A DNA stretch of 39,870 nt, from assembly GCA_003344405.1 (NCBI GenBank), contig NOWV01000181.1, positions 34,131 through 74,000 on the forward strand, written 5' to 3'. This stretch comes from Trichoplax sp. H2 (taxonomy: Eukaryota). The notes under the pieces were generated by a model. That model worked only from the letters and a program-made list of their open reading frames with translations, made no database searches and was not told the origin of the DNA. How positions within the stretch are numbered: position 1 is the first letter of the stretch; each line of letters begins with the position of its first letter. Below, one piece after another: positions 1 through 35,703 of this stretch. Both the position numbers and the translations under genes were made by a program.

Positions 1-370
1 GACATATCGTAATCTGACTATTCTGTATTAGTCATTACATGTCTATGTTCGTAAATACTGTTGTCTGCATTAAGGGAGCAGTAGCTAAAATTAATATCTA
101 ATTCAGTAAATGATTCTAATGTTAATTGTATTAACTATGACTCATGAACTATTGAGGAATAGTATATAAATGCAGTATATCGTGAAATAAAGAAGAATTG
201 TCCAACTTAGTGTTTAACGTAAAATACGAGGCGTTTAAGTCTTTGTGTAGTCTGCTAGTAGAGCAAAAGTGTTTGTGATAGTGCAGATATCGTTCCTTGA
301 TACGTGGTTCAAGGAATTGACTTATTGATCGTATATTGCGTTATCTTGTTGCAAAGCTGTTTTGTGACAG
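1..370. repeat. Left arm of a ~370-bp inverted repeat. Its reverse complement matches 8661..9029 at about 95% identity. It may extend beyond the window start.
   Basis: I reverse-complemented 8661..9029 by eye and it aligns base-for-base with 1..370 apart from a few substitutions and small indels (for example gttaattgtattaactatgactcatgaact, ggaggcgtttaagtctt and gttgcaaagctgttttgtgacag). The match diverges after gacag at about 370. Confidence 0.85.
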
Positions 371-1204
371 TCATGCAAATATGCTGAGTAGAATATAACA
401 GATACAATGTGTAGATGATTTACTATCGATCGACGTAAGCACCATTAATCGTATCAAGGAATTACTTGTAATAATGTGATTTAGTAATTATAATGACTGC
501 TGTTCATTCTAGACTATTTTATTTTCTATTAACTCTCCTAAGGGTAAATGTTAACTTATGATTTGGAAACTGAAGTTGTGAATTTCATATTGTAATGAAT
601 ACGTATGTAAAACTGATTTTCATTGCTACTTAAACGATATATTTCAAGTTTATAAAATTTAAGTTATGGTTATAAATTAAAGAGACGAAAAGTAAGAATT
701 TGACTCAAGCGTAACTCTTTATAATTAATTTTATTCAATGTAACAATGAAAATACTCATAAAGCTACTTATTTTTAGTTATTTATCACTAACTTGATAAT
801 CAATTCTTTGTGATACCGTGTTAAGATATTGTATTGTTACTTTATCTAATTTTTAAAATTTTACCTTGAGTTTTAATGAAGTTAGATAAGAACAAACCCT
901 GTACGTTTATTCTATGATTAAAACTGGGAATATTGTACTAGATAAATATAGTCCTTGTAAATATCACTAACGAATGGCAGAGTGCTACATCTTATCCTGT
1001 AAACAATAAGGTTCGTTCTCTACCTTCTACTGTATATATACTGTGGAAAGATGTCGATTTGGAAGTATAACTGTTATACCGGCTGAATATACGCCCATCG
1101 CGGAGCACTCTCACGCCATTGACTTGATGAATTGGAAATAGATTGGTATCGAGTAATCGCCTTGTAATTGAAGAATTTAAGCCTATATTCATTTTGATCG
1201 TATT

Positions 1205-1560
1205 TTCTGCTGGAATAGGAATCTTTTCAAATTGCACCTTTACATAATAAATAATTTATTAGCTTACTTCTAAGAAGAAACAAAATATACATCGATTAAT
1301 GGCCGATCATCGTAGTACCTTCCCCAAATTAAAAATCAGAGGTAATAATATAATCGTCACCCGGAAGTGAAAAATCTTCTAATTAAAGCAGTGTATACCC
1401 TATATGGATGTAGGGGTACAATCATTAATTTACATTCTTATTTCAACTTTGAGATTTACAACGTTATCATTTTCTATCAAATCTTCTAATATTGGGTTCT
1501 CGAGTTTATGTTTCCGTGTAGAAATGACCCATGAATATTTTCATCATTTACGGCATTAAG
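1205..1560. repeat. Dispersed repeat, copy A. Its homolog is at 20520..20900 in the same orientation, at about 75% identity.
   Basis: Shared blocks: ttttcaaatt(g/a)(c/t)accttt, aagaagaaaca(a/g)(a/g)atac(a/g)tcgattaat, tcacccggaagt(g/a)aaa and atcattttc(t/g)atca(a/g)atc. Confidence 0.6.
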
Positions 1561-2859
1561 TTAAAGCACTAGCTGAAGTAAGAATGGATCACTAGAAGAG
1601 ATTACCTTATTTCCTCCAGTCTTCATCGGCTACTTGAATCTTTGATCATAACATATTGCAGTAACTTATAATTGCTCAATATCAGCGCTATATCTACGCG
1701 TCTTAAAATATAAACTATTTTTTTTTTATTGACAATCAACACTAGCATATTAAATTAAAATTATTGCGTGAAATCATCAACAATCACGCGCACCTTAGAA
1801 GAAGAAATTTATTTAGCAGCTGTGTCAGTAATTCTTTTAGGTGCTTTTTTATCTTTATTGTTCCTGATATAATTAAATGATTTTCCCCAGGTTAAAATTA
1901 GTATTAAAAAGAAATTACTCACTGTTGTAAAGCCCAGTTTTAAAAATATTACAAGTGCATAACTATATCATTCTGTGTTTTTTAAACTGACTATGCTTGA
2001 TTAAAGCTAACATCTGTTACTTTGTAGTCTAATTTTATTAGCTCCACCTCTTACTATATAATATAAAATAATTGTGTACGATTTTATTGCCACGGTCCTA
2101 TGTCGTTTCAATCAAGTTGACATGAGTGTTTCTGATTGGCTGAAAAGGGATTACCGTCACTGTAAAAAAAGAACTTTTCAGAATTTACCGCAAAAGCGAA
2201 GAGTGTACAGAAACTTTACTGTTCAATTACGGGGAAATGCCTTTTTAATCTGAATCATCAGTATGATATCCAAGCTACTAACAAGGCGAGTCTTGTTTTT
2301 TATTACAGATCATTATATAAACAGTACAATCCTTGCAATCTCATCTAGATAACTTTCATAACTACTACATTAAGAGTGATTATTATGGTAGGATATTAAT
2401 GTTACAATACCACGGTGAATACCATTACCACATAATGAAAACCCAAAATATCGCAAATTAATCAATTAAATTAATCTATCATTACAGTCACAATTCTGTT
2501 TTGTACTGTGTTACACAATATCCAGTATACTGTACTGTAATATACCTTACATTCTTTATATATTATATATATATAATAATTCTACCCTATCTTGTAACAA
2601 TTTAGAACCTTAAGTTTGCCCAAATTTTGGTTATTTATTAAAAGAATTGTGCTTTACTTCACAATAATTAGCAAAACACACTTATACATATATTCGTACA
2701 GTATAATAATCCTGCTTTTTTTAAAGTTTACGAATATTTTTTATCCTAAATTTTGCAAGGAAAAAATTTATATTGAAGTGTAAAAAATGTTAAAGAAAGT
2801 ACACAGCAAATTATAATAAAAAAAATCGTCGATATAGTACGGAATAAAATAAATGTTTG

Positions 2860-3400
2860 TCTTTCCAGCGAACACTATCTTAACTTCAGTTGTCTATAGA
2901 TTGCATCGTAAGACAAACATACATTTTAAAATCTTGTACTACCTTATCTTTAGTTATCTATTAACTACATTATTAATTAATAACAGTTAGTAGGTAAACA
3001 GTTAATCGACCGAAGATCAATCGATATTGTGCAGTTTAATTGAATACACTTATTATTGGATTTCTCAAAACACATGAAATGTTAAAGCAGGAATTCAGAT
3101 GAAACTAACAACTACGTTCGGTCGAATATTTTATACATTTTAAACAAACGCATGTCATCTTTACGCTAACACTACTATACGTTTAGCCATTTGTAGACCA
3201 TATTATAAAACAACCGTCAGTCTTGACGACTAAGACTATTTTCCATTCAGTCGTTCATAAGTCGTCTGTAAACTTCATTAGAAATAAATGGATATCTTTA
3301 CGGCTAACACTACCTAATCTTCAGTCGCTTATAGACGGCATTATAAAATGAATGCATATCTTTAACGCTAACACTACTTTTAGTACCTGTTATGGAGCCA
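2860..3400. repeat. Degenerate tandem repeats of about 70-150 bp. Recurrent motif: (a)tctttacg(c/g)taacactac(c/t).
   Basis: The motif recurs at about 3146, 3292 and 3358. The related ttaacttcagttgtctatagattgcat at 2880 matches taatcttcagtcgcttatagacggcat at 3316. Confidence 0.55.
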
Positions 3401-5214
3401 AGCTCCAAAATAATAAAGGCCTTGTTAATTAAAATATATAATATAAATTGTTGTTTATACCCCAGTGGTCTAATAAGCGTTAATGAATACATGTTTATTG
3501 ATAAGGTTAATGTCTAAGTAATTGAATACTAATACCTAAGTGTAAGGCGTAATTTATACTGAGCCTTGAGGCTCTAATTGGCACAAATAAATTTATTATT
3601 CTTAATTAGCGTTAACTTATACTGATTTATGTTAACTTCTTCTATCTAAATTCCTACACTAAACAGCGTAACTAGTTATGTCTAAGATACTAACATATGC
3701 ACCATCGGCGGAGGCCGAGACTATATAAATTCGAGCACTAAATTAGCTGTTCAGTTCCTTTTAAAACATTTTTAGATTCACTTAATCATTTTTGCTAGGA
3801 GTTTTCTTAGGATATATCTCAATAAAGTAAATTCTTGAAGCCTATTACCCGTTGGTAGCTTATCTGTGTAGTCGAGAGTTAGTTCAACTACGATAAATCG
3901 CCTAAGTCAGTTGGGGACACGCGTAGTCGTGACAACAGCGTTTAAGACCTCTTCGAAAAGGCAATTCGTAACAGTGCCATACCTTTACATCCTGTTACGA
4001 ATTATAAAATACGAAATAATTGACAAGTAAAGTATGAAAAATGGCTAGATAATAAATCAACTGATAATTAACATTATACAAGAACCAAAAAATCTCTTCT
4101 TGAGCTGAATTTCGGACATTAGCCACAATTTTATCATAAAAATAAAGCTACGGGTAGGGCAACAAAATCTGTATTGCTCGCTTTATACAACATGTAAATC
4201 ACACTAAGAATAATTGCATATTTTATAACTGCTCTCTGGTGATTTGATTAGTCAAAAAAGTTCTTTATATCTATAGCGGAACTTCAAAATCGAGGACGAA
4301 CAACAACACTCGACGGCGCTCTATTAGCACGATACTTAAATTGTTTACAACATACAGATTATAAAATAAGATGAAGTAAACTTGCAAAACTAAGTAAGCC
4401 TTTTCAAATCTAAGAATCTTCTTCTACTCACTATGTTAACAATAGTATATTTTTGAAAGAGCTTCACTACTGTTAGTCAATTGCATAAAAATGATCAAAT
4501 TTATAGCAATAAGATAAATATTCGGATATTCATATTCTGATCGTTGTTAGTATCAATCAACACGATTGGTAATTTATTACCTGTTTTGGGTTTGCGACAA
4601 TGGGACTTTTGGCGAAAATATTTCCAATGCGTTAATAATTTAATAATCAATCGGGATGGAACAATGGAATATTAATATATATTAGAAATTTCTTGTTTTA
4701 TTCATTATAAGTAATTTCAATAATGGTCTATAATTGGAGGGAGATCAGCCATTTCTTCCTATAACCGACTTGATAGATCGTATTGTCTTACAATCAATGA
4801 ATTGGTTGTCAATCACGATCAGTTATGAACAAACTTTTATGATTGAAGTGTAGTTCCCACATGATACAACAATTTGCAGAACTTTCAGACGTATTGTTTT
4901 GATTCCATATTTAAGTAAACGTATGAAATCATGTCAAGTATCTGATCCTACGGGAGCGGTATGTAATATCTTTCAAATACAAAAATACACGATTCGAAAA
5001 TTATTAATTCATTAAATCGCTTAAGGCTATAACTTAAGGCATATCATGATAGTCTGTTCATATCAGCTGGACTGTTGGTGCGTTGACGCTGTAACGTTTA
5101 GTAAATGCAAGCATCCGTTTCCGTGTACCATCCTTTTATTTGGCAAATAGTCATCAGTAAAGCAGTAATTAAAAAAATTACAGATAAAATAGACTCTACA
5201 GTTCAAGGTAGAAA

Positions 5215-5766
5215 TATTGGAATTAATTGACAAGAAGAGCTTGCAGAATTAGCAATCCATCGATAAAACTTTTGAAATTGATTCCTCTTTCTTGATTTAT
5301 TTACCACTAACATCGATATTACGGTATTCATTTATGAAAAATTTAAACATTTTAATAGCAAAAGAGCATAACCCTACCAGAAAAGATCAAAATAGCCAAG
5401 CAATCGTGTGAAAAACTTAAAATTGATTCTATTTTACGATTAATATTGATGATTGATACTGATATTGATAATTCATTAACTGATATTAGACATTGATATT
5501 AATTGGCAAGAAGAGCTTGCAAAGTTAGCTATCCATCGCTGCTGGGACTTTCGAAATTGATTCCTCTTTCCAGATTCCAGCTGTAACTAATATTGATATT
5601 GTGTAAGGTATTCATTTCGTAAATTTGGACACTTTATTACCAAAAGAATATAACCTTACAGGAAAAGAGCGAATATAATCAAACTATCGTATCAAAAACT
5701 TAAAATTTGTTCTATTTGGCGGATAAATATAGACGACTGATACTGATTTTGAGAACCCACTCAGAG
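5215..5766 (+). promoter_or_regulatory. Two tandem copies (about 5215..5490 and 5491..5766) of a ~275-bp conserved upstream module ending 10 bp before the GPCR-1 ATG. Core sequence: TTGACAAGAAGAGCTTGCARAATTAGCAAYCCATCG.
   Basis: aattaattgacaagaagagcttgcagaattagcaatccatcg at 5221 matches tattaattggcaagaagagcttgcaaagttagctatccatcg at 5497. Downstream blocks (gaaattgattcctctttc, ccagaaaag/caggaaaag, aaaacttaaaatt) are also shared. A third copy lies upstream of GPCR-2. Confidence 0.7.
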
Positions 5767-5776
5767 CACAAAGAAT

Positions 5777-6913
5777 TTGATATATAAAATGAACGCTAGC
5801 TTTAATGACTTTATTAACAAGACCCAATCATTTCATAGTAATATTTGGAGCGATATAATTAGACGCACTGAAATCATGCAGCCGGCTTTGACTGTGATGG
5901 CCTGCTTATATATTATGATCATGGTTATAGCTATACCTGGTAATTCATTAATCTTATGGATTACTTTGGCCAACAGGCGCCTGAGGACACCGACAAACTT
6001 AATGGTTTGTAATTTAGCCGTAGCAGGATTGTTGTTAGCAAGCATACAGATACCTTTTAAAATTTTTGATCTTTTAAGCCCAATTCAGTCAAGATATTAC
6101 TATCCGTTTAGCGTTTCTGTATGCAAGATGACTCTAATGATACCTGGAGTATGTGTTACAGCAATATCGTTTACCTTAATGGCTATTTGCGTCGATCGAT
6201 ATCGTGCGATTGTAACTCCGATCAAATTTAAGTTGATAACCCATCCAGTTAAGGTCGCCATTTTTTTGCCATTATGTTGGTTATTTGCTTTCTCGCTTTT
6301 GGCGCCTTATGGTGCTTTTGCAACCATTCACCCATGGTTTGAACAACGCCAAGTTTGTGTTGTAAATTGGATGACTAACCACCATTTGGATATCATCTTC
6401 GTTAAAAATAGAATAGTGTACTTTATACCTTTCTCCAAGATGATCCTCTGGCTATTATTTATTATTCTAGTCTTTCTTGTGCCAACAATCATTATGACAA
6501 TGTTATACAGCATTGCCGCTCGAGTGTTGTGGCGTGAAGGGCTAGAAAAGATGCGAATGATGACTTCGATGAGTCTAGAATCCAGTTCGATTAGCCGTGA
6601 ACGATGTGCTAGCTTAAGTTTGGATGAGCATCGATTAAAAGCTCGAAAACGAACTATTAAAATTTTGATAGCCTGCTTTATCTTGTTTATTGCCAGCAAT
6701 TTACCGTATTATACTTTGCTCACGTTGTTTGAATTTAAATTAATTCAACTTCCAAATTATTTCGTACGTTATGGTCTGATCAATGCATTTGTGCTCTTAA
6801 ATTATACTTGCATTGCTTATAATGCCATTATTTATGGCTACTTTAATTATAACTTTCGGCGTAATGCTCCTCGATGGTTTCATTTGAAGAATTATTGTTC
6901 ACAGTGCAGATGA
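5777..6913 (+). CDS. Intronless rhodopsin-like (class A) orphan GPCR, 378 aa, paralog 1. The true start may be the second Met at 5789.
   Basis: Full-length ORF with seven hydrophobic segments. TM2 reads NLMVCNLAVAGLL and the DRY motif is CVDRYRAIV at the end of TM3. The TM7 motif is NAIIYGY (NPxxY with P replaced by A). N-terminal N-glycosylation sites are present (NAS). The C-terminal tail NYNFRRNAPRW is conserved with paralog 2. Confidence 0.85.
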   Translation: MIYKMNASFNDFINKTQSFHSNIWSDIIRRTEIMQPALTVMACLYIMIMVIAIPGNSLILWITLANRRLRTPTNLMVCNLAVAGLLLASIQIPFKIFDLLSPIQSRYYYPFSVSVCKMTLMIPGVCVTAISFTLMAICVDRYRAIVTPIKFKLITHPVKVAIFLPLCWLFAFSLLAPYGAFATIHPWFEQRQVCVVNWMTNHHLDIIFVKNRIVYFIPFSKMILWLLFIILVFLVPTIIMTMLYSIAARVLWREGLEKMRMMTSMSLESSSISRERCASLSLDEHRLKARKRTIKILIACFILFIASNLPYYTLLTLFEFKLIQLPNYFVRYGLINAFVLLNYTCIAYNAIIYGYFNYNFRRNAPRWFHLKNYCSQCR

Positions 6914-8660
6914 ATTAATGCACAAGAGCCGTGATAGGGATTCTATATTGTGGTAGAATGTCAACAATTTGCGGTTGATCAAAAACTACAGATAACTGAA
7001 AGTATCTAATGCAACTATATTAGATGACTAAAATAAGTAAGAGCTTTTAAATTGGCAGTAATTTGAATTTCCTTACTCTTTATTGATCTTATGTTTTGGT
7101 ATTGAAATTGAAATAGAAAGCTAAATCTTATTATACGATTTCAATGATACTACTCTTTCGAACACCACCGTAACTGTATTATTTAACTAATTGATATCTT
7201 TAATTTGGAGATGGTATGTTGATTCAAATAATTGCGACTTAGTAGTTCGTCGATGATGATGACGAAGTGAAAATAACTTCGAAAATTAACGTAAGAAAGC
7301 GTAATTTGGGAATATTGAATTTAGTCAATTGCTTACAGTTAATCAGTGTTGTATAACGAATGTTAATGACAATACAAAATGTTTTCAGCTCAGTAAAATA
7401 AATTCTCTAGACCTATCTGGAAAATGTCGCTAATTCTACGTGTTTTAATTAAGAGTAGTTTTTGCTTGGTTGGTAAAGTAAAGTTAGCATTTTATATTCA
7501 AAAGAGCAAGAGAAAATCTATGATCATTTGAATAAGTAAGAAATCTGCATACGGTATTAATTCTTAATGTTTAAACTATCGGAAAGATGAAATTATCTAG
7601 TAGGAATAAAAATATCTAATCATTGTATGGAATTCAAAGGAATCTCATTCTTGCATGATAAATTAATGAATTGCTGATAGAATTTCCAAAACTTTTTGGT
7701 GCATGGCTTTTGAATAATGAAGCGATAATTACTTCTTACACGACTTGATCGGTTGTGAGATTCTAGCCAATCTTTCATGGTCGATGGTAGAATGGTTTCG
7801 AAAATGTGACAAACAAATTTTAAATATAACAGATAATTAACTGATTTTGTACTAGGAGTTTATCGACTAAGATACATTTACTCTTGCATTTAAAACTGAT
7901 TCATAATTTAGTTATGAGTGCACTGATAGAATAATCTATGCCGTCTATGCCACTAAACCGTTAACAGACTAAATAGTCTGTAGAGCAACAATATTGATTT
8001 TAGTTTTTGAAGTAGTTTAAATTTTCTAGTTATAAATTTCCATTTGTAATAACAGTATTAAACGATAGCTTAGAGAGATTGGAGATATTAATTAATTAAC
8101 ATTTAATGTAACTTACCAGTAAACTATGCTTAAGAATACTGTTTCTTGTTTTAGTTATTGCTAACGTTAATACTAAATTTTGGCTACTTAAAAACTAATG
8201 AAGTAAATTGTAGATGGTGAAGATTTTCATTTATTATAGCAATAGAAAGAAAATACTGAACGCCAGTTAATAATGTAAATAAGTAAGAAAGCACAAATAA
8301 AATAAATAGGGTTGAATCAAATTGTCATATAGCATTAATAATCGTTATTAGTGCAAATGATTATACGCGTATTTCAATTTAATTTCTTAATTTAATAATT
8401 GTATTTAGATCCTTCTTCAATCATGTTAGCAGGTTTTGCTATATTTGTGCAAATACCTCGAGTGCATTACCAAGTAGGTAATTAATACCGGTATGTAGTA
8501 AAGGAATATTAATTTTGACTGACTGTAGGAATTTCTATGTTTTATGAGCTAACTCTTAACAATTTCAAAAGTAGACTTAAATTTGAGATTACTCGCTTGC
8601 TTACGGTATGTCGGCGATTTGATCATTCAAATTATTTTAATTGATGTACTGCATAAGTTG

Positions 8661-9029
8661 CTGTCACAAAACAGCTTTGCAACAAGATAACGCAATGTAC
8701 GATCAATAAGTCAATTCCTTGAACCACGTATCAAGGAACCATATCTGCACCATCACAAACACTTTTGCTCTACTAGCAGACTACATAAAGACTTAAACGC
8801 CTCGTATTTTACGTTAAACACTAAGTTTGAGAATTCTCTTTATTCCAATATATACTGCATTTATATACTATTCCTCAATAGTTCATGAGTCATAGTTAAT
8901 ACAATTAACCTCGGAATCATTTACTGAATTAGATATTAATTTTAGCTACTGCTCCCTTAATGCAGACAACAGTATTTACGAACATAGACATGTAATGACT
9001 AATACAGAATAGTCAGATTACGATATGTC
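8661..9029. repeat. Right arm of the inverted repeat paired with 1..370.
   Basis: Same alignment as the left arm. The repeat ends at 9029 (gatatgtc), which corresponds exactly to window position 1. Confidence 0.85.
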
Positions 9030-10514
9030 CTATCACGGAACATTTCCATGATAATTTACAATCTGCCATAAGTAAATTACAATCACAATGATTCGATCTG
9101 TAAGTAGATGATTTGCATTCCCTATTATAACTATTAATTTCAGTATGTGTATAAGTGTCACTGTGATAAAAAGTCAGTGCTATATTAAAACACAGTATAT
9201 CCAAATCAGAAGTTAACTAAATAAGGATAGTCTAATAGAATTATCCTAACATAGATATTTCTACTGTAATACAGTATTTAACACTATAACAGTTGCCAAT
9301 TAAGATCAGGTGCGAACAGCTTTGTAATTAACTTGTGAAATACAACGATAGACAACGCTGAGATTATGCATTGAATAGGCTATATTGTGATAAACTATTT
9401 TTCTCAAAAATAGTAAATGAATTATAGTTTACTGTTATGATATATACAAATCACGAGATTCCAAATTTTAGAAAAATAAGGGCTTTATTGAATCTTTACA
9501 AAGATTAACTACACACAGCTCTACTTTAGCCGAATACTACTACTAACGACTTCTAGAACGAACTAACAGAATAATCTGAAGTAGCATGCTTTTATACTTT
9601 TCGTAGCATTCGTAGCTACAATCTGTATGGCAACCTTTTACCTTATATTACACATAGTTAAATTATTCTTAGTAAGACTATTCTACTGCGGACCATCATT
9701 AATCCAATATGGATACGACTACAGTACTTACGTAGACATTATTTACACCAGCCAAAGTACAATGAATTAACCATATCCTAATATATGATTTACAGTTCTA
9801 TTTTTACCTAAAGCCTAATTAGTAACTCAACACCTCACCGTATATAGTCATGTGTACTCTAGCATAGAGTCTATACCACTACAGTCTATAGTTATAGCTA
9901 CCAAATATCTGTTAGGATAAATATCTACCGTATATTAAACTTGGCTAACAGTCTACAATCACAATACTAGTTACATTACAACTGTAAACTTGGATTCACA
10001 ACCTATATCTGGTTTATCTTACACTTATTCATATTGTGGCTTCTAATTGAATTATCACAATGTGAATTTTATACTGCTAACGCAAGCTATATATAGTATA
10101 TAACATTAAATAAAAATTTTTATGTTTTATTAACGATAAACAACTTGAATAATAGACCTCCATGTAAAATCCATCGTTTATTTGCGTTACCTTTCTATTA
10201 AATCTCATTGGTTTAATTGATAAATACGTTGTCAATCACGATAAGGTATGAGCAGCTGGTTTAAATTAACTCCCAAAATATGAATATATGTAATTCAGAG
10301 ATTATAACTCTATAAATGATTTGAAGCTATAAAATAAAGCTAATCACAATTATCTTTTCATATCTGTTTGGCCACGATACATTGTAATTAAAAGTAGAAT
10401 CATACGTTTTCGTACAGTGATTATTTTATTATACAGAAACATATTAAGATAAAGAAGACTCTGTTTTGAAAATTTCGATAGACTGACTCTACGTTTCATA
10501 GCAGAGACATTGGT

Positions 10515-10790
10515 ATAAACTGACAAGAAGAGCTTACAAAATTAGCAACCCATCACGGAAAATTATTGCAATTTATTTCGATTTCTGGACTACTTTTGCG
10601 ACTTATAATTATATCAATATTGTGAACGGCATCCAGTAGCAAATTTAGATATTTTGTTATCAATAAAGTATCGTACCATCTTATCAGAAAAGTGCTAAGG
10701 CCAAAATTAACTAATCGTCTTAAAAGCTTGAAATTTATAAAACTTTATGATCAAGACTCATCGTTAATACCGATATTGAATATCCATTTA
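10515..10790 (+). promoter_or_regulatory. Third copy of the conserved ~275-bp upstream module, located 70 bp upstream of the GPCR-2 ATG.
   Basis: ctgacaagaagagcttacaaaattagcaacccatcacgg at 10520 matches the core at 5228 and 5504. Downstream blocks atcagaaaagtgctaaggccaaaat and cttaaaagcttgaaattt also match the other copies. Confidence 0.65.
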
Positions 10791-10859
10791 GAACACGAAG
10801 ACTCTATAATATTGAAATTATCTATCATTTAGACAAATATCACTAAGTAAATCATCAAA

Positions 10860-11996
10860 ATGAATAACAGCATTAATGACTTCGTGAATAACTCTCAGGC
10901 AATCATAAATAATATATCCGGTTATATTGAAAGAATTGAAGTTATACGAACAGCTTTGACCATAATAGCCGTCATATACGTTACGCTAATACTTATAGGT
11001 ATTCCTGGCAATTTATTAATTATATGGATTACTTTGGCTAACAAGCACTTGCGGATACCGATAAATTTATTGGTTTGTAACTTGGCCCTTGCTGGATTGC
11101 TAATAGCAAGCTTACGAATTCCAATTACAATTTTCGAACTTTTATTCCCCATTCAATTTGCTAATCACTATCCGTTTACTCTTTCAGTCTGCAGATTGTC
11201 TGAAATTGTGCCAGGTGCATGTGTCATAACAATATCTCTTACGTTAATGGCTATTTGTATCGATCGATATCATTCGATTGTACATCCAACAAAGTACAAA
11301 CTGAGAATGAATCCAGTTAAGGCCATTATTTTTTTGATATTATGCTGGTTGTTCGCTTTCTCGTTTTGGATACCATATGCATTTTTTATTAGGATTGGTA
11401 GCTCTACGAGATATCGCTATTGCTACACAATTTGGCCTTCAAGTCCGTTATTGGATGTAAGAATTCCTAATTCCGCTTATGGAAATATCATAATACCATA
11501 CTCAAAAATGATTTATTTGCCACTCTATTTCATTCTGATCTTTCTTATCCCAATTACCATTATGACGACATTATATATCATTACTGCTAAAAAATTGTGG
11601 CATACAAGGCCTGAACATATGTTAACAACAGCGCTTAATAGTACAAAACCCAATGCGACTACTAGTAAACGATCCGATAACATATCTCAGGATGGACATC
11701 GACTTCATGCTCGAAAACGGATCGTTAGAATTTTCATAGCTTGCTTTATCTTATTTATTTTCAGCAATCTGCCATATTACATGATCACAATCTTAATTCA
11801 ATTTGGATTAATTCCAGTTTGGAGTGGTAACAGTGAATTTGTACTGTATAGAGTTTTTATTCTCTTGAATTACTCCTGTGTTGCTTATAATGCCATTATT
11901 TATGGCTACTTTAATTACAACTTTAGACGTAAAGCTCCCCGATGGTTACAGTATAAATGTCCGCAATGTAGATCAGCAAGGCTATCAGCAAAGTAG
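10860..11996 (+). CDS. Intronless rhodopsin-like (class A) orphan GPCR, 378 aa, paralog 2. It is a tandem duplicate of 5777..6913.
   Basis: The two proteins are collinear and highly similar by eye. WITLANKHLRIPINLLVCNLALAGLL aligns with WITLANRRLRTPTNLMVCNLAVAGLL, CIDRYHSIV with CVDRYRAIV, and NAIIYGYFNYNFRRKAPRW is identical in the tail. Both are 378 aa. Confidence 0.85.
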   Translation: MNNSINDFVNNSQAIINNISGYIERIEVIRTALTIIAVIYVTLILIGIPGNLLIIWITLANKHLRIPINLLVCNLALAGLLIASLRIPITIFELLFPIQFANHYPFTLSVCRLSEIVPGACVITISLTLMAICIDRYHSIVHPTKYKLRMNPVKAIIFLILCWLFAFSFWIPYAFFIRIGSSTRYRYCYTIWPSSPLLDVRIPNSAYGNIIIPYSKMIYLPLYFILIFLIPITIMTTLYIITAKKLWHTRPEHMLTTALNSTKPNATTSKRSDNISQDGHRLHARKRIVRIFIACFILFIFSNLPYYMITILIQFGLIPVWSGNSEFVLYRVFILLNYSCVAYNAIIYGYFNYNFRRKAPRWLQYKCPQCRSARLSAK

Positions 11997-12899
11997 AATA
12001 ATGCCAACAATTTAGTGTTCATGAATTGTTTTCGCAAATAAAATCACAGCAGAAGCGATAATTACAGGATGAAATACATCAATACCTATTTTTAATTCAT
12101 AGTAGCTTAAAGTGAGGAGCTGCTTTTTCCATGCTTCACTATTTTAAGCTATTTCAACTTTGCCACTTCTTTCACGAACTGCTATTTATCGGTATTGTTT
12201 AATTAATTTATGAATTCCTCCAATTTTGTCTTAGTAGGTTATGTTAAAGAAAAGGCAATGTGATTATCACGATTATGTGAAATTAAAGCTAACAATATGA
12301 ATCAGCAGTTGCAATTTGCGGACATTAAATTGCGTAGAACGCTTGAAGTTAATTTATTTTGGACAGCTCATGTATAGTTCAATGTAAAAATGATCTCAAC
12401 TCAATTCAAGCAACTAGACCAAGCCTTTCAAGAAAATACAGTCGTTTTTGCTTTCTTAATTGAAATCTCCATTTAAAGGCATTATTTAACTTAATGACTG
12501 CTAATGATGAACATGAGTCAGCTCATATCTAAAGTAAACTTGAAACTTGCTTATCATGTAATTCCTAATTTCGTAATTCCAATAAATAGGAATTATTTAT
12601 AATAGCATAATGAGAATATCCAAGTATTGTATGTAAATGAAAAACCTAATTCTTGCAATATAGATTGCTTAAGTTCTGATAGAATTTAAAAAAGTATTTG
12701 CTGCATAGTTTAGAATAGCACAGTGATAGGTACCGTAAAATACTTTATTGGCAACAGTGAGAATCTAATGTATGCTACCCTGGGCTTGACCTGAAATACA
12801 AGCTCCAATTGGCATTTCTTAATGATACTTCTGGCACAAGTACAAATAACAGATACATTACAAAATCATATGCTATCACGACTAAAACTGAAAATAAAT

Positions 12900-13300
12900 T
12901 ATGTGTCGGCAATACGCCAGTAATATTTCGATACAGATGAGACAAGTGAATTAACTTATTCGATAATATTGCTATTTAGCAGCAAGGGCTTCGCTGAAAA
13001 TAAGCTGTGTGTCCGTAATACTCAAACAATATCGTCGATACAAAATAAATATAAGCTACTTAAAGATAATTTACATATCAATCGGTATTGCTGTTTTGTG
13101 TCTCAGATTTAATTGAAATCAAACTATGAATCATTAATGAACGAACGATATTGTCTAGGCAAATGAGACAAGTAAATTAACCTACTTGGGTAATATTGCT
13201 ATTGGCATCACGAATTGCATAGAAAATGCGTAAACTAAGTGCTGATAATGCTGTAACTTAGATACAAATAAGACAATTGGTTGACATTTTCGGCAATATT
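12900..13300. repeat. Degenerate minisatellite of about 120 bp with about 4 units.
   Basis: Recurring unit ...gatacagatgagacaagtgaattaacttattcgataatattgctat.... Variants occur at about 12903, 13010, 13150 and 13260. Confidence 0.5.
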
Positions 13301-16250
13301 TTAAGTATTAAGCATTTTACCTCTAGAAATGAAGTGGTAATAAACGGTGCAGTAATGCTTTAGTAAAATCGAGAAAAATATTCAAGTTAAGCAGCAAACA
13401 TAACAAGGTTGGTATTGAAAAATTATCTCGTAGATCGTTAATTTCTGCAAGTTTTCAATTTAAATAGTATTTTATGCTAGAATGGCAAGCTTTTCAAATG
13501 ATACGCTATGAAGAATTTTACAACGACACATTTTATGAGCCTTCTTCTACCTGTTGAGGTACGAGTAATAGTATAGCTAGCAAGGATAGCTGGAAAAAGA
13601 TTACTTACAACAATATCTGCTCTTAGAAATTAGGAACTTAGAACAATACTCTAAAGAAAAAGCGAAACTGCTAAAATATGAAATTAACGTTGTGTATATC
13701 AGATTGTGAACAACATCAATTAAACTTTCAGAACTTAATTTGCACCGGAGATTCTATGATTATACTTGTACACTAGCCTATCTAAACAGCTTTACTACAG
13801 GCAGTCAACTGCATAGCAGTTATCAAATTCATAGTTTTCGGATAAATTGTATTATGCGAAACTCGTATTCTGATATTAAAACGATTTGTATCCATATGAA
13901 GTTTGTGGTTGAGGCGCTATATTACATTAACATATTGATAAATTAAATTGTATTTCAAATTTAACATCTGGCATTCTGTAGACTTCCATTCGACTTAGTT
14001 TACCTATTTGCCAATAAAGAGCTATCATATCCTCCTATCTTTCGTGCATCTGTGATAATATTTATTAGGTTAAACAGGAACTATTAAGACTAAAGATATA
14101 GATTTGACAAACAAGAAGCTAAATATGATATTTGCACCGATGTTGCTATTGATGAAGATGAGCATTGAAAAAAACGCTACAGTAATTGAGCGTTGTGCTG
14201 TAATATTTAAATGGACAGATGACAACAAAATGTATACTATACTGCTTGTATAGATAACACAGCTGTTATGGAGTTTGTTACGATTATTTACGGTTAGGTA
14301 CGATATTATGTAACGTAGTTTTCCATTAACGGTCATGGCTTTAATTAATCCGAACACAAACTAGTCCAGTAGTATGGTACATATACGCATTGAATATGTA
14401 TGGTAACAGTTTATATAGACGCATTAGTTAAGGCGTTACCATCATAGCTATCTTAATTATGGAAATATTCAGGATCGTCAGTAAATGACATTTAACGATA
14501 CTAAATATTTGCCTAGATAAAATACCGGCTTTCTTGTAAATAATTTATAATTTCTTACTTGGTAATCCCTGATCTTTAATATCTTAAGAGATCTCAATTT
14601 AAATGAAGTAATTTAAAGGGATTTTCATTGATTCTAGAGCACGGCAGGTTATACTGAATAACTTAGTTAAATAAGATGACCAGGAGAAAATAACCTTAGC
14701 AGTTAGAATCAGGAAGTGCAATTTGGACATAGTTAACCTAGTCGATTACTTAGAGTTAATAGATATTGAGCAGCGAAAACTAACTACAATATAAAGATTT
14801 GTTTCTTAGCTCAATTAAATAGACTATACTACAAATTTAAAGAAAATATTACACTTTATCGGTATTTATTTAATTCAAAGCCCAATCATAATATTTGAAA
14901 CAGTACAATTAGCAAATTTGTTTGAAAGGTCGAAAAAAATCAACTTTCATCTAAAAATAACCGGAAATCCATATACGGTTGTTATACTTCTCTTACTCTC
15001 TGAGACATAGACTCCTTACAAACCCCAGCTTTTACTCCAGCAACACAATACGCAAATCTTAGAACTTTAAAATCGCCTTTTATTCACGTAGCCTTTGTAA
15101 TGAAATGAAATGTGTAGGAATCAAGCTACAAAACTTTTAACTAACTTCTGATCCTACTTTCTTTGCACTCTGGTCGACTTAATAACACTTTGACACCTAA
15201 TAAAATTGGGTAAACAACGGATCAACAATTTATTAAGAAAATGAGTGATAGACTAATCAAACAACCTTCCAAATGCTTAATTCTAGGTATTATCAATAAC
15301 GAAATAAAAAAGCGACAGAACTGATACTGTCAGCAACCAAACAACCTAACAAATAGAAGAACGCTTTAACTTATATCAGTTCGACCCAGAAGGTCTTTAA
15401 AATTTAACTAGTTCTTCAAATAATCATCTTTTACTCTCTACCTTAAATTTTCTGATTGCACTATTATTTATAGGCTTCACAGAGCCCCTGGTGGAATTTA
15501 AAACTAAACATTTACTAATCAATCATTCTGACGATCCATTTTAGATAACTACTTTGCACCGCTTAAGAAAACAAAAATTATTGAGACACAGTCTGCTCTA
15601 CGATTCCTTACAAAACACTATAAAACCAAACAAACTATCTATGAAATACTCTAAAATTCATCAAGCTTCACTTTCAACATAATTTGTAATCATTATTTCG
15701 GACTTTACTTAATAATTCCAATTAGCAGATTACAATATTACAATTATAACTATAATTACAATTTCAATTAGTATTATTATTACTAGAATCATATTATAGT
15801 AAATTTTGTCAATCAATTCGGCTTACTATTGACAAACATGTAACTTATATCATATCTATCTTGTCCAATACTTGTAACTGATTTAATAACTGGTCTATGA
15901 TTTACAGGCGCTAAACAAATAATCATCTAATTTGAAGGCATAGAGGTTGTTATAGGACCAATACTACTGCCCGTTACAATTCTAAATTTGTAACGGAAAA
16001 ATTTCATTTTAAACCTAGAATCTAAATACTACCCATATTACAATTCCAAATAATGGCGATCATCCATCGCCAGGAGGAACAGCAATGTATTTATATAGGA
16101 AAGAATGTATAATGTCATAGATAAGACCATTCTCAATAAATATCAAAGGATGTTATCTCTAGCGGAAATAAGATATGCGTTACTTATCAAAAAATCGCTA
16201 AGCGACAGCTACTGTATATATTGTCAGATATTACTAAATTTAATTTCTTT

Positions 16251-17735
16251 TTATCTTCTTTTACAACCTAGATTTATGCCATTAGCTGGAGACATAGTTA
16301 TGCCACACCTTAATGGTAAGGGAACATCTGTTTCTTCAGTAGTAATTAATTCTACACTTCGTAAAATTTTCACAAGGGCCAATTTAACCTCTAGCAGAGC
16401 CAATCTCTTTCCGATACAATTTCGTGGCCCGTTGCCAAATGGAAGAAATGCGCAAGCTGCGTGCTTGGATTTCTCCTCCGGCGTGAAGCGTTCAGGCATA
16501 AACTGCTCTGGATTAGGCCATAAATTAGGATTATGATGAATAGCATAGATAGGAATAGCAATCATAGCCTCTTTTGAGATCTGATGACCATCAATTGTAA
16601 TATCATTTTTGCATTTTCGAGTAACTCTAAATGCGGGTGGATAGATTCTTAATGTTTCCAATATAACCATTTCTAGATAGGGTAAGTCCGATACACAATC
16701 ATAATCTAAAGGATCAGTATCGTTAAGTTTTGTTTTAATTTCATGATATAATCGACGCTGTATTTCTGGGTTTATTGCCAATAAGTAGGTGGCAAACGCT
16801 AATGTATTTGCTGTCGTTTCGTAACCTCCCACGAGAAAGACCAAAGCCTGAGCGATAATTTCTTTGTCGTCTAATTTATCGTTATCACCAGCTTCGATCA
16901 TCTGTTGTAACATATCTCTACGGCATGAAACGCCTTCAGACATATTTTTCCTCCTTTCCTTAATTACATTTCTGCAAGTATCCGCTAAATAATTTAGCGA
17001 GTTCATAAACTGCCCACCAAATAGTGGCTCTAAAATACGAAATAACGGTGTTGCAAATAATAGCAGTATATGCAGTAGACCAGGTGAATTACTCGCTAGC
17101 TGACTAGCAGCACCAGTTAATCTCTTTTCTTGTTCTTTCGATTCAAATTCTATTCCAAAGGCAGAAGCAAGAATAACCTTCATTGTAAATTTGCCACAAA
17201 TCCTCCATAACTCAATAGAACGGCCTTCTTTTTCTGCGTTTAATAACATTACAACAATTTCATTACTAGCCTTGTCAACACAGGGGAAAGTGAGCTTCAA
17301 CTTTGATGTGCTAAATGTAGGTATTAAAATATTCCTTACACGCTTCCAGTCCGTATCTCTCAATTCTACTAACGTTTTATTAAACGGTTCTAAATTATTA
17401 GCGATACCGAAACGGTTAGTGAAATTGGAGAAGTCCTTGATTAAGACTGATTTCAATACTTCTGGATCGCCAATCCAGATGGTAGGGACGGAAAAAAATA
17501 AAGTGCCATACACATGACCGTATTTTTCTTGTCTTTCTACTTGGACTAAGTGCTGCGAAGCCGATTTACCATCCAACAAGTTGCCAAAAAGGGGTTTAGG
17601 ATGGGGACCACTTAATCCCAATTTTCTCAAATGACGATAAGGTTTAAGGTAGTACTTGTAAAAACACCAGGCCAGAATTGTACCTGATATTAATAAGATT
17701 TGCGATATTGATAACTGCAACCCAATCATGTTCAC
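16251..17735 (-). CDS. Cytochrome P450, CYP3-clan (CYP3/CYP6-like), 494 aa, single exon.
   Basis: Full-length ORF with an N-terminal membrane anchor and KYG.VYG near the N-terminus. I-helix VGGYETTANTL, EXXR motif (ILETLRIYPP), PERF motif (FMPERFTPEEK) and heme-binding loop FLPFGNGPRNCIGKRLA are all present. The overall arrangement is collinear with CYP3A-type proteins. Confidence 0.9.
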   Translation of the reverse strand: MNMIGLQLSISQILLISGTILAWCFYKYYLKPYRHLRKLGLSGPHPKPLFGNLLDGKSASQHLVQVERQEKYGHVYGTLFFSVPTIWIGDPEVLKSVLIKDFSNFTNRFGIANNLEPFNKTLVELRDTDWKRVRNILIPTFSTSKLKLTFPCVDKASNEIVVMLLNAEKEGRSIELWRICGKFTMKVILASAFGIEFESKEQEKRLTGAASQLASNSPGLLHILLLFATPLFRILEPLFGGQFMNSLNYLADTCRNVIKERRKNMSEGVSCRRDMLQQMIEAGDNDKLDDKEIIAQALVFLVGGYETTANTLAFATYLLAINPEIQRRLYHEIKTKLNDTDPLDYDCVSDLPYLEMVILETLRIYPPAFRVTRKCKNDITIDGHQISKEAMIAIPIYAIHHNPNLWPNPEQFMPERFTPEEKSKHAACAFLPFGNGPRNCIGKRLALLEVKLALVKILRSVELITTEETDVPLPLRCGITMSPANGINLGCKRR

Positions 17736-24811: not shown

Positions 24812-25287
24812 GTTTTAAACTATTTCCAATCTGAAACCACAGACACCATACTATCTGAAGATGTTGCTTCGTTAACGCAATATTTATGGGCAGAAGCCGT
24901 AGGAGAATTAGATGAAATATTATCATCATCCGTGGAAGAGATTACGAACGAAAATATTGCATCAGCGGAAGGGATTCTCCTCAAATTAAAGACCTGCCTA
25001 TCCGAAAACCGCTATGATCAAATCAGCAACCTTAGTCAACAATTTTACTCCTTAATTCCACACAAAAATGATGATATAACTATTGATTCATTCCGATTAA
25101 TTAGTGATAAGCAAGATCTTTGTCAATTAATACGGGACATCATTAACGTTAGTGAATTAACCGATTGGAAGATGGATAGTAGTATAAATGCCAAGTACAA
25201 AGCATTAAAGTGTGATATTCAAAATTTGGAAGAAAACAGCCATGAATTTAAATCCATAAAGAATTATACTTTATCATCCTGGAAAGG
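24812..25287 (+). CDS. PARP4: PARP4-like exon, PARP alpha-helical regulatory domain.
   Basis: ..LTQYLWAEAVGELDEIL.., AEGILLKLKTCL, LSQQFYSLIPHKN, KQDLCQLIRDIINVSE and AKYKALKCDIQNLEENSHEF match the vPARP/PARP1 regulatory domain (FYxLIPH, DLCQLIRD). The acceptor is ctactag at 24811 and the donor is agg|GTAAGT at 25288. Confidence 0.75.
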
Positions 25288-25440
25288 GTAAGTTAAAGTT
25301 ATCTTACTTTACAGTAAATAATGTTCATTACTTATTTGCTAGAAACGGAAATTCCAAAAAACTAAATACTGATTTAAAAAGTCTATAAACTTTTACGATC
25401 ACAGCGAGCCTACAACAATAAAAATTAATAGAATATTTAG

Positions 25441-35554: not shown

Positions 35555-35703
35555 GTAAGAATTAAATTGCAATATAATCAATTTATTAATAATTTACCCG
35601 CACTAAATTATGTTCTAATAGCCAGTAAGTTAATCTAAGAAAGAGTTTGTAGATAAATTATATTAGTCGAGAAATTAATCCTAATCGTTTTAATTATTCA
35701 TAG

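What the first reader, a model, noticed from the sequence alone, without database searches (positions are those of the whole stretch)
5777..11996. Tandem pair of intronless orphan class-A GPCRs with atypical activation motifs
Both 378-aa receptors keep DRY and the TM2 N-L-x-x-x-N-LAxAGLL signature. TM7 reads NAIIY rather than NPxxY. No CWxP toggle motif is recognisable in TM6, where the sequences are FILFIASNLPYY and FILFIFSNLPYY. The cytoplasmic tail ..GYFNYNFRR.APRW is identical between paralogs and ends in Cys-rich C.QCR, possibly palmitoylation sites. This suggests a lineage-specific receptor subfamily that is expanding by local duplication.
Basis: partly seen in the sequence, partly recalled or inferred. 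Interest (0 to 1): 0.5.

Follow-up and report, generated by a model that had tools for sequence, protein, structure and literature searches.

The report
Tandem placozoan orphan GPCR gene pair
Two neighbouring single-exon genes in a Trichoplax (placozoan) genome encode orphan rhodopsin-type receptors from a small placozoan-only family whose conserved inner sodium-binding core has been rebuilt; both genes are already in GenBank, so this is an ordinary, correctly spotted gene pair with one moderately interesting twist.

Summary
Two uninterrupted + strand ORFs, 5789-6913 (374 aa from the first ATG) and 10860-11996 (378 aa), are 51% identical class-A GPCRs (Pfam 7tm_1, E 1e-29 and 8.5e-34). The window is Trichoplax sp. 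H2. Both genes are already deposited as RDD38352.1 and RDD38357.1, under best-hit names ('Tachykinin-like peptides receptor 86C', 'Substance-K receptor') that orthology does not support.

They are sister paralogs from an old tandem duplication (dN 0.36, dS about 0.95) that also copied flanking non-coding DNA. Trichoplax adhaerens carries the same pair at 99.4% nucleotide identity.

They belong to a discrete placozoan-only clade of about 17 genes in H2. The clade has G/S at 2.50, I at 3.39, N at 6.48 and C/S/A at 7.45, and NAxxY in most members. DRY, Y5.58, N7.49, Y7.53, P5.50 and P6.50 are kept.

It scored TM2 as conserved, when LAxAG is in fact the loss of Asp2.50, the most unusual change. 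It also overlooked that Pro6.50 is retained.

Most likely these are functional G-protein-coupled orphan receptors, probably for peptides, without a sodium site. Interest is low to moderate.

The parts
5789..6913 (+). GPCR gene 1. Single-exon CDS of 374 aa plus stop. Equals GenBank RDD38352.1 and T. adhaerens TRIADDRAFT_61584, both modelled as 345 aa from an internal Met.
   Evidence: ORF. Pfam 7tm_1 E 1.2e-29. The 345-aa deposited models cover 92% at 100% identity. The N-terminus from the ATG at 5789 aligns with gene 2 from residue 1 and carries the sequons NAS and NKT.
10860..11996 (+). GPCR gene 2. Single-exon CDS of 378 aa plus stop. Equals GenBank RDD38357.1 ('Substance-K receptor', Trichoplax sp. 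H2).
   Evidence: ORF. Pfam 7tm_1 E 8.5e-34. 100% identity and coverage to P0001. AlphaFold2 model with 7 TM helices, an ECL2 hairpin and helix 8, mean pLDDT 75.
5192..5760 (+). Upstream non-coding unit of gene 1, about 276-283 bp, present twice in tandem. The core TGRCAAGAAGAGCTTRCARARTTAGC lies at 5228-5253 and 5504-5529. It is a candidate promoter or 5' UTR segment. The 3' limit at 5760 is approximate.
   Evidence: Repeat families D2 and D4, spacing 276-283. Core motif 3 matches in the window against 0 expected. Sequence read directly. The function is inferred, not tested.
10469..10788 (+). Upstream non-coding unit of gene 2, a single copy, homologous to the units upstream of gene 1. The core lies at 10521-10546.
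   Evidence: blastn 5174-5477 against 10469-10788: 66% over 325 columns, E 6e-17. The 50-nt core is 84% identical.
7605..7716 (+). Downstream non-coding block of gene 1, about 0.7 kb after the stop codon, homologous to 12609-12717.
   Evidence: blastn 75% over 112 nt, E 3e-14. Repeat family D6.
12609..12717 (+). Downstream non-coding block of gene 2, the counterpart of 7605-7716. It marks the 3' extent of the duplicated unit, which is about 5.0-5.1 kb long.

Best explanation
The region holds two functional, single-exon, paralogous genes for orphan class-A (rhodopsin-type) GPCRs of the placozoan Trichoplax sp. H2.

Origin. They arose by an old tandem duplication of a unit of about 5 kb that included the upstream and downstream flanks. 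They belong to a placozoan-only clade of about 17 genes in this genome.

Proposed mechanism, inferred from residue conservation and not tested:
- An extracellular ligand, most likely one of the many placozoan secreted peptides, binds a pocket roofed by a disulfide-tethered ECL2 hairpin.
- Signalling proceeds to heterotrimeric G proteins through the retained microswitches D/ERY (R3.50), Y5.58, N7.49, Y7.53 and helix 8.
- The usual hydrated sodium/water pocket in the receptor core is absent. Asp2.50 is Gly/Ser, Ser3.39 is Ile, Asn7.45 is Cys/Ser/Ala and Ser7.46 is Ile/Val.
- The Trp6.48 toggle is Asn, and in most members Pro7.50 is Ala.
- Activation should therefore be insensitive to sodium. It would rely on a small-residue and hydrophobic TM2-TM3-TM7 packing, plus a polar Asn6.48 / Asn7.42 / Tyr7.43 layer, in place of the canonical network.

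The two paralogs probably differ in ligand specificity, because ECL2 (23% identity) and ECL3 have diverged far more than the helices.
For: Shown here:
- Gene identity and organism: ORFs; Pfam 7tm_1; identity to deposited Trichoplax sp. H2 and T. adhaerens proteins.
- Conservation between species: the same pair sits in T. adhaerens at 99.4% nucleotide identity. Gene 2 is 100% identical there, and gene 1 differs by 3 synonymous and 2 non-synonymous changes.
- Purifying selection between the paralogs: dN 0.36 against dS about 0.95. The 14 clade sequences, only 36-52% identical, share 43 invariant columns.
- Tandem origin: sister relationship in the tree and collinear flank similarity.
- A discrete clade: clear score break in the profile search. 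All named members are placozoan.
- Residue table:
  - The clade has G/S 2.50, I 3.39, S 3.40, N 6.48, N 7.42, C/S/A 7.45 (Gly in the most divergent member, P0023) and I/V 7.46. Position 7.50 is A in most members and P in P0013, P0014, P0017, P0018 and P0020. In P0167 and P0171, not in that table, 6.48 reads Gly.
  - Nearly all of the roughly 130 next-best class-A hits have D2.50, S3.39 and P7.50, and most have W6.48.
  - N1.50, C3.25, R3.50, W4.50, P5.50, Y5.58, P6.50, N7.49 and Y7.53 are all retained.
- Fold: 7TM model, nearest to NPFFR2, QRFPR, NPFFR1, NMUR2 and OX2R.
- Segment identities: TM helices 54-69%, helix 8 77%, ECL2 23%, ICL3 17%.

From the literature:
- Trichoplax sp. H2 has 923 GPCRs, mostly a placozoan-specific expansion expressed combinatorially in peptidergic cells (PMC10580291).
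- D2.50, S/T3.39 and N7.45 form the conserved class-A sodium site (PMC6037435).
Against: - There is no expression, ligand or signalling evidence for these two genes. The supplementary tables of the two most relevant placozoan GPCR papers, as held here, did not contain their sequences.
- From general knowledge, mutating Asp2.50 or Pro7.50 in canonical receptors often impairs G-protein activation. Canonical coupling therefore cannot be taken for granted.
- Position 3.32 is Pro rather than the Gln of NPFFR2, so the ligand pocket does not resemble the nearest peptide receptors and the ligand class is uncertain.
- The model is of moderate confidence (pLDDT 75) and I could not inspect its coordinates.
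- The comparison between H1 and H2 is too shallow (5 differences) to show constraint on its own.
Confidence: 0.65

Rival explanations
1. The genes are functional receptors, but chemosensory or small-molecule receptors that sense environmental or food-derived cues rather than endogenous peptides.
For: - The single-exon, tandemly arrayed, lineage-specific and fast-diverging pattern is what chemoreceptor families in other animals typically show (general knowledge).
- The ligand-pocket residue 3.32 is Pro, unlike RFamide-type peptide receptors.
- There is a weak overlapping hit to the nematode Srsx chemoreceptor model: 24.4 bits against a cut-off of 24.1 for gene 1, and 21.0 bits for gene 2.
- Independent GPCR duplications in placozoans have been linked to sensory capacities (PMC6067683).
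Against: - The closest sequences and structures are all peptide receptors.
- The model has the ECL2 beta-hairpin that is typical of peptide-binding class-A receptors (general knowledge).
- Placozoan GPCRs are reported to be expressed mainly in peptidergic cells (PMC10580291).
- The clade is small (about 17 genes), and the pair shows no copy-number change between H1 and H2.
Confidence: 0.2
2. The remodelled core makes these non-canonical receptors. They would be constitutively active, arrestin-biased, or ligand scavengers or decoys that do not activate G proteins in the ordinary ligand-dependent way.
For: Asp2.50, Ser3.39, Trp6.48, Asn7.45 and (in this subclade) Pro7.50 are all lost together. 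From general knowledge, removing the sodium site tends to raise basal activity or bias signalling in model receptors.
Against: - R3.50 in D/ERY, Y5.58, N7.49, Y7.53 and a basic helix 8 are invariant or nearly so across the clade. That conservation would be unnecessary for a decoy.
- Melatonin receptors signal through Gi with a natural NAxxY motif (PMC8786939).
Confidence: 0.1
3. The genes are orthologues of bilaterian tachykinin (Substance-K / TkR86C) or NPFF receptors, as the GenBank product names imply.
For: Deposited names. NPFFR2, NPFFR1 and NK2R are among the top solved-structure matches.
Against: - Identity to these receptors is only 19-23% in the structural alignments. E-values of 1e-23 to 1e-15 are no better than for orexin, QRFP, CCK, somatostatin and neurotensin receptors.
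- The profile search shows the clade separated from a flat continuum of class-A receptors.
- In the tree the placozoan clade is monophyletic, apart from the NPFFR-like and CCKR-like outgroups.
- Different clade members carry five different vertebrate receptor names. This is what best-hit name transfer looks like.
- Published phylogenies found no such orthology (PMC9545775).
Confidence: 0.03
4. One or both copies are non-functional relics of duplication (unprocessed pseudogenes).
For: Gene 2 was not called as a gene in the T. adhaerens annotation. Several canonical motifs are missing.
Against: - Both frames are intact over 374 and 378 codons in DNA that is 31% G+C.
- The same substitutions are fixed across the whole clade rather than scattered.
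- dN is well below dS.
- Gene 2 is intact and 100% identical in T. adhaerens.
Confidence: 0.02

Closest known systems
Placozoan-specific family-A GPCR expansion (Trichoplax sp. H2: 923 GPCRs; Najle et al. 2023, PMC10580291; Hauser et al. 2022, PMC9545775; Eitel et al. 2018, PMC6067683)
   Same: Same organism and the same kind of gene. These are lineage-specific rhodopsin-type receptors without bilaterian or cnidarian orthologues that multiplied by duplication. Both genes are already deposited as RDD38352.1 and RDD38357.1.
   Different: Those papers treat the repertoire in bulk. In the text searched here I found no description of this roughly 17-gene clade or of its G/S2.50, I3.39, N6.48, A7.50 core.
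Vertebrate RFamide-type and tachykinin-type peptide receptors (NPFFR1/2, QRFPR, NK2R, orexin receptors)
   Same: They are the best sequence and structure matches. They share the overall 7TM fold, the ECL2 hairpin, the C3.25 disulfide cysteine, D/ERY, P5.50, Y5.58, P6.50, N7.49, Y7.53, and the helix-8 motif F-N-x-N-F-R-R/K.
   Different: Identity is only about 20-25%. Those receptors have D2.50, S3.39, W6.48, N7.45, S7.46 and P7.50, and NPFFR2 has Q3.32. The window genes have G, I, N, C, I/V, A and P at these positions. There is no orthology.
Melatonin receptors MT1/MT2 (natural NAxxY motif)
   Same: They have a natural NAxxY in place of NPxxY in TM7 and are nevertheless functional, Gi-coupled receptors (PMC8786939).
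   Different: From recall, melatonin receptors have NRY rather than DRY and keep D2.50 and the Trp of CWxP. They are not among the top 60 sequence matches or the top 50 structure matches. The shared Pro-to-Ala change is therefore best read as convergent.

Membership tests
Class A (rhodopsin-like) GPCR, Pfam PF00001 7tm_1 | Sequence matches the 7tm_1 profile above the curated cut-off over the whole domain | tested here: met
   104.1 and 117.6 bits against a cut-off of 30.5, profile positions 1-260 of 260
Class A (rhodopsin-like) GPCR, Pfam PF00001 7tm_1 | Seven-transmembrane fold with helix 8, resembling solved class-A receptors | tested here: met
   AlphaFold2 model with pLDDT 75 and pTM 0.72. 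Foldseek probability 1.00 to NPFFR2, QRFPR, OX2R and others, with target-normalised TM-score 0.74-0.86.
Class A (rhodopsin-like) GPCR, Pfam PF00001 7tm_1 | Reference residues N1.50, C3.25, D/E-R-Y (R3.50), W4.50 and P5.50 | tested here: met
   N51, C111, D135-R136-Y137, W163 and P231 in gene 2, invariant or nearly invariant in the clade
Class A (rhodopsin-like) GPCR, Pfam PF00001 7tm_1 | Asp2.50 and the sodium-pocket residues S3.39, N7.45 and S7.46 | tested here: not met
   G79, I125, C340 and V341 (I in gene 1). The whole clade has G/S, I, C/S/A and I/V at these positions. Almost all of the roughly 130 neighbouring class-A hits have D and S (alignment to NPFFR2). These residues are typical of the family but not required for membership.
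Class A (rhodopsin-like) GPCR, Pfam PF00001 7tm_1 | CWxP motif in TM6 | tested here: inconclusive
   Only Pro6.50 is kept. Position 6.47 is S/T and 6.48 is N (SNLP or TNLP).
Class A (rhodopsin-like) GPCR, Pfam PF00001 7tm_1 | NPxxY motif in TM7 | tested here: inconclusive
   N7.49 and Y7.53 are kept and P7.50 is Ala (NAIIY) in both window genes. More divergent clade members (P0013, P0014, P0017, P0018, P0020) still have NPIIY.
Tachykinin receptors (Substance-K / NK2R, TkR86C), the deposited product names | Orthology: closer to tachykinin receptors than to other peptide receptors | tested here: not met
   NK2R scores E 2e-15, worse than NPFFR2 (1e-23) and similar to orexin, QRFP, CCK and somatostatin receptors. 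The clade is monophyletic and separate. Paralogs carry five different borrowed names.
RFamide-type receptors (NPFFR1/2, QRFPR) | Gln3.32 in the peptide pocket, plus orthology. That Gln3.32 is a defining feature is recalled from the literature. Its presence in NPFFR2 is visible in the alignment. | tested here: not met
   NPFFR2 'GLVQGISV' aligns with 'EIVPGACV', so 3.32 is Pro118, which is nearly invariant in the clade. Identity is 21-23%.
Melatonin receptors | NRY in TM3 together with NAxxY in TM7, and sequence relatedness | tested here: not met
   NAxxY is present, but TM3 reads DRY. No melatonin receptor appears among the top 60 sequence hits or the top 50 structural hits.
Nematode Srsx serpentine chemoreceptors (PF10320) | Score above the curated cut-off and better than competing models | tested here: not met
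   24.4 bits (gene 1) and 21.0 bits (gene 2) against a cut-off of 24.1. Both hits overlap, and are far weaker than, the 7tm_1 match.

The most novel reading that the evidence does not exclude
The clade would be a natural, evolutionarily stable class-A GPCR lineage that signals through G proteins with no Asp2.50 sodium site, no Trp6.48 toggle and, in most members, no Pro7.50 kink. A compact G2.50 / I3.39 / C7.45 / A7.50 packing and an Asn6.48-Asn7.42 polar layer would stand in for the canonical activation network. That would make it a ready-made natural experiment on which class-A microswitches are actually dispensable.
Probability: 0.35. Interest if true: 0.45.

Novelty: new member of a known kind. 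Interest (0 to 1): 0.25.

Why it matters
The practical value is mostly in annotation.

- The deposited names ('Substance-K receptor', 'Tachykinin-like peptides receptor 86C') imply an orthology that is not there.
- Gene 1 is modelled 29 residues too short in both Trichoplax annotations.
- Gene 2 is missing from the T. adhaerens gene set.

Biologically, placozoans coordinate behaviour without neurons, using secreted peptides and a very large GPCR repertoire that is still almost entirely orphan. This is a compact, well-delimited clade with paired tandem copies and diverged extracellular loops, which makes it a tractable target for peptide-library deorphanisation.

If the clade's sodium-site-free, Trp-free, partly Pro-free core still supports ligand-dependent G-protein signalling, it would help define the minimal class-A activation machinery. 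None of this overturns current understanding.

Tried and rejected
- **More copies in the window.** tblastn of both proteins against the whole window found no further copy or fragment; all other hits had E > 2. The 3.9-kb spacer has only four ORFs of 52-63 aa and nothing recognisable.
- **RNA genes.** There were no Rfam matches and no tRNAs anywhere in the window.
- **Genomic context in Trichoplax sp. H2.** The assembly is not in the contig index, so look-ups of P0001, P0002, P0005 and P0007 returned nothing. Clustering in H2 therefore rests on shared contig lengths and on T. adhaerens loci.
- **Prior experimental treatment.** I searched the supplementary files of the placozoan GPCR deorphanisation preprint and of Najle et al. 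2023 for the two sequences and for the TRIADDRAFT_61584 tag. There were no occurrences in the text held, so I cannot say whether these receptors were among those tested or docked.
- **Upstream core motif in another locus.** A search upstream of a second tandem pair of the clade (L002) found nothing. The motif is specific to this pair, not a family-wide element.
- **Relocated acidic residue.** I considered whether an acidic residue elsewhere in the core could restore a sodium site, as in the unrelated hit P0106, which has G2.50 with E3.39. No core position examined in the clade carries an acidic residue: 3.35 is C, 3.39 is I, 7.45 is C and 7.49 is N.
- **Melatonin-receptor relationship.** The shared NAIIY suggested one. 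It was rejected on DRY versus NRY and on the absence of melatonin receptors among the top matches.
- **Literature.** Searches for a prior description of these motifs in placozoan GPCRs returned nothing relevant.

Full report
**1. What is at the coordinates**

The window has three ORFs longer than 300 aa. Two of them lie on the + strand at 5777..6913 and 10860..11996. The window is about 31% G+C throughout, so stop codons are frequent. By my own arithmetic from that composition, an open frame of about 378 codons has a chance of roughly 5e-14 per start.

- Both products match Pfam 7tm_1 end to end: 104 and 118 bits against a cut-off of 30.5.
- They are 51% identical to each other over 375 columns.
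- The first ORF is 378 aa only if it starts at a TTG codon. From the first ATG (5789) it is 374 aa, and its N-terminus (MNASFNDFIN...) then aligns from residue 1 with that of the second gene (MNNSINDFVN...).
Only gene 1 ends in CSQCR; gene 2 continues as CPQCRSARLSAK.

**2. Whose genes they are**

Gene 2 is 100% identical over its full length to GenBank RDD38357.1, 'Substance-K receptor [Trichoplax sp. H2]'. Gene 1 corresponds to RDD38352.1, 'Tachykinin-like peptides receptor 86C [Trichoplax sp. H2]', and to T. adhaerens TRIADDRAFT_61584. Both of these are modelled as 345 aa from an internal Met.

The syntenic T. adhaerens locus (DS985264.1, fetched as L001) is 99.4% identical to window 370-16914. 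It contains both genes:
- Gene 2 is 100% identical there but was not called as a gene in that annotation.
- Gene 1 differs at 5 nucleotides, 3 synonymous and 2 non-synonymous.

The deposited protein equals the uninterrupted ORF, and tblastn gives single full-length alignments. The genes are therefore single-exon in their coding part.

**3. The duplication**

- Between the paralogs dN is 0.36 and dS about 0.95, which is near saturation. The duplication is old, the copies are under purifying selection, and the event predates the H1/H2 split.
- In a neighbour-joining tree of the clade the two genes are sisters (support 95). The clade is monophyletic against NPFFR-like and CCKR-like outgroups (support 100).
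- Similarity continues collinearly outside the coding regions.
  - An upstream unit of about 276-283 bp has the core TGRCAAGAAGAGCTTRCARARTTAGC. It occurs twice in tandem before gene 1 (cores at 5228 and 5504) and once before gene 2 (core at 10521). That is three matches against none expected by chance.
  - A block about 0.7 kb downstream, 7605-7716 against 12609-12717, is 75% identical.
- The duplicated unit is thus about 5 kb. Silent coding sites are nearly saturated, so survival of these non-coding blocks suggests they are functional (promoter or UTR). That is an inference.
- The window holds no further GPCR copy or fragment.

**4. The family**

A profile of 14 clade sequences was searched against 1.84 billion cluster representatives.
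- It found 28,354 proteins at E <= 1e-3 (the class-A superfamily) but only 57 at E <= 1e-30.
- There is a sharp break. Six representatives score between 1e-167 and 1e-83. Three stragglers follow at 1e-54 to 1e-43. A flat continuum begins near 1e-35.
- All named members above the break are Trichoplax. One further T. adhaerens member (P0023, also deposited in sp. H2) lies just below it. The unnamed members come from two metagenome assemblies and nest beside Trichoplax sequences in the tree.
- Pooling searches gives 16 full-length members and one partial member in Trichoplax sp. H2.
- Several members share contigs: three on a 617-kb contig, three on a 448-kb contig and two on a 129-kb contig.
- A second same-strand, single-exon tandem pair (P0014 and P0018, 55% identical, 8.7 kb apart) is directly visible in T. 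adhaerens locus L002.

This fits published accounts. Trichoplax sp. H2 has 923 GPCRs, largely a placozoan-specific expansion (PMC10580291). Independent GPCR duplications have occurred in placozoan lineages (PMC6067683). No bilaterian or cnidarian orthologues of placozoan family-A receptors have been found apart from LGRs (PMC9545775).

**5. The motifs, placed on the standard numbering**

I aligned all retrieved sequences to the clade profile and read off reference positions, anchored on N1.50, C3.25, R3.50, W4.50, P5.50, P6.50 and Y7.53. The C3.25-to-R3.50 spacing is the canonical 25 residues, so TM3 is not shifted.

| Position | Clade residue | Residue in about 130 next-best class-A hits |
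|---|---|---|
| 2.50 | G (S in four members) | D in nearly all |
| 3.39 | I | S in most |
| 3.40 | S | varied (mostly V/T/I/A/S) |
| 6.47-6.50 | S/T-N-x-P | C/S-W-x-P in most |
| 7.42 | N | varied (mostly A/G/S/T) |
| 7.45 | C/S/A | N or S |
| 7.46 | I/V | S in most |
| 7.50 | A in the window genes and most members; P in P0013, P0014, P0017, P0018, P0020 | P in nearly all |

- Retained throughout the clade: N1.50, C3.25 with an invariant ECL2 cysteine, D/E-R-Y, W4.50, P5.50, Y5.58, F6.44, P6.50, N7.49, Y7.53 and a basic helix 8 (F-N-x-x-F-R-R/K).
- The alignment with NPFFR2 shows the same substitutions directly: LAISDLL against LALAGLL, SWLP against SNLP, NPIIYG against NAIIYG.
The 'TM2 signature' it counted as conserved is in fact the loss of Asp2.50.
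- Asp2.50 is described as fully conserved and central to the class-A sodium site, together with S/T3.39 (80% conserved) and N7.45 (67%) (PMC6037435).
- Pro6.50 of CWxP is retained. No acidic residue appears elsewhere in the core positions examined.

**6. Structure and nearest relatives**

- The AlphaFold2 model of gene 2, built on the 14-sequence alignment, has mean pLDDT 75 and pTM 0.72. It shows seven helices, a beta-hairpin in ECL2 and helix 8. ICL3 and the last 12 residues have low confidence.
- Its best Foldseek matches are NPFFR2, QRFPR, NPFFR1, NMUR2, OX2R and opioid, neurotensin and somatostatin receptors, at 18-23% identity.
- The sequence search of solved structures gives the same picture, with no single family standing out: NPFFR2 at 1e-23, NK2R at 2e-15, orexin, QRFP and CCK receptors at about 1e-14 to 1e-13.
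- Position 3.32 is Gln in NPFFR2 and Pro in the clade.
- The deposited names are therefore best-hit transfers. Clade members carry at least five different vertebrate receptor names.
- NAxxY also occurs naturally in the Gi-coupled melatonin receptors (PMC8786939). The window genes have DRY, and melatonin receptors are not among their top matches, so I read this as convergence.

**7. How it most likely works**

Shown: the genes are intact, conserved and clade-specific, and the G-protein-facing microswitches are invariant.

Inferred:
- They are ligand-activated, G-protein-coupled receptors.
- The ligand is most likely a peptide, given the nearest relatives, the ECL2 hairpin and the peptide-rich signalling of placozoans.
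- Activation would not depend on sodium. It would use a compact G2.50 / I3.39 / C7.45 / I-V7.46 / A7.50 interface plus a polar N6.48 / N7.42 / Y7.43 layer in place of the canonical water-and-sodium network.
- The helices and helix 8 are 54-77% identical between the paralogs, while ECL2 (23%), ECL3 (38%) and ICL3 (17%) have diverged. This suggests different ligand specificities on a common signalling core.
- N-terminal N-x-S/T sequons are present.
- The Cys residues 19-22 positions after Y7.53 are plausible palmitoylation sites, but they are only semi-conserved in the clade and cannot be tested here.

Rivals are a chemosensory or small-molecule role, a non-canonical (constitutive or arrestin-biased) receptor, true tachykinin or NPFF orthology, and pseudogenes. 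The last two are poorly supported.

**8. Verdict**

The genes are already deposited, and they belong to a known phenomenon: the large placozoan-specific class-A expansion by duplication. The new content is modest:
- the clade is delimited;
- its coordinated loss of the sodium pocket, the Trp toggle and (in most members) Pro7.50 is documented;
- the flanking conserved elements are noted;
- three annotation problems are identified.

I rate it a new member of a known kind, with interest 0.25.

Noticed in passing
window 1-370 and 8661-9029: A 370-bp inverted repeat, 97% complementary, brackets gene 1 at 8.3 kb spacing. In T. adhaerens only the internal copy is present at the collinear place, and collinearity with the window stops exactly at window position 370. 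This is either an H2-specific inverted duplication or rearrangement breakpoint, or an assembly artefact at a contig end.
   Followed up: partly
window 5192-5760 and 10469-10788: A conserved non-coding unit of about 280 bp lies upstream of both GPCR genes and is tandemly doubled before gene 1. Its 26-nt core has 3 matches against 0 expected. It has survived although silent coding sites are near saturation. It is identical in T. adhaerens and absent upstream of another tandem pair of the clade (L002). It is a candidate shared promoter or 5' UTR element.
   Followed up: partly
L001 14985-16121 (T. adhaerens DS985264.1): The T. adhaerens orthologue of gene 2 is intact and 100% identical at the protein level, but no gene is called there in the GCA_000150275.1 annotation. 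Gene 1 is modelled 29 residues short (345 aa) in both the T. adhaerens and the sp. H2 annotations.
   Followed up: yes
window 16251-17735 (- strand): An uninterrupted cytochrome P450 gene (Pfam p450, E 2.5e-104). It is 494 aa from a GTG codon and 492 aa from the first ATG, which matches the 492-aa T. adhaerens model at the syntenic position.
   Followed up: partly
window 24932-25291 (+ strand): A 119-aa ORF matches the PARP regulatory domain (PF02877, E 4e-10), covering only part of the profile. It is presumably one exon of a multi-exon poly(ADP-ribose) polymerase gene.
   Followed up: no
window 32635-33189 and 34933-35565 (+ strand): Two ORFs of 184 and 210 aa with acidic or Pro/Ser-rich low-complexity sequence and no Pfam match. 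They may be exons of uncharacterised genes.
   Followed up: no
P0106 and P0040 (hits of the profile search, not in the window): Two class-A receptors outside the clade also lack Asp2.50. P0106 has G2.50 together with E3.39, which may be a relocated acidic residue. The Trichoplax sp. H2 protein P0040 has G2.50 and YRL in place of DRY. Loss of Asp2.50 may not be confined to this clade in placozoans.
   Followed up: no
L003, L004, L005 (ENA assemblies ERZ27263980 and ERZ23499115): Close relatives of the clade occur on short contigs of two metagenome assemblies. In the tree they sit next to Trichoplax sp. H2 paralogs, so they probably come from uncultured placozoans present in those samples.
   Followed up: partly
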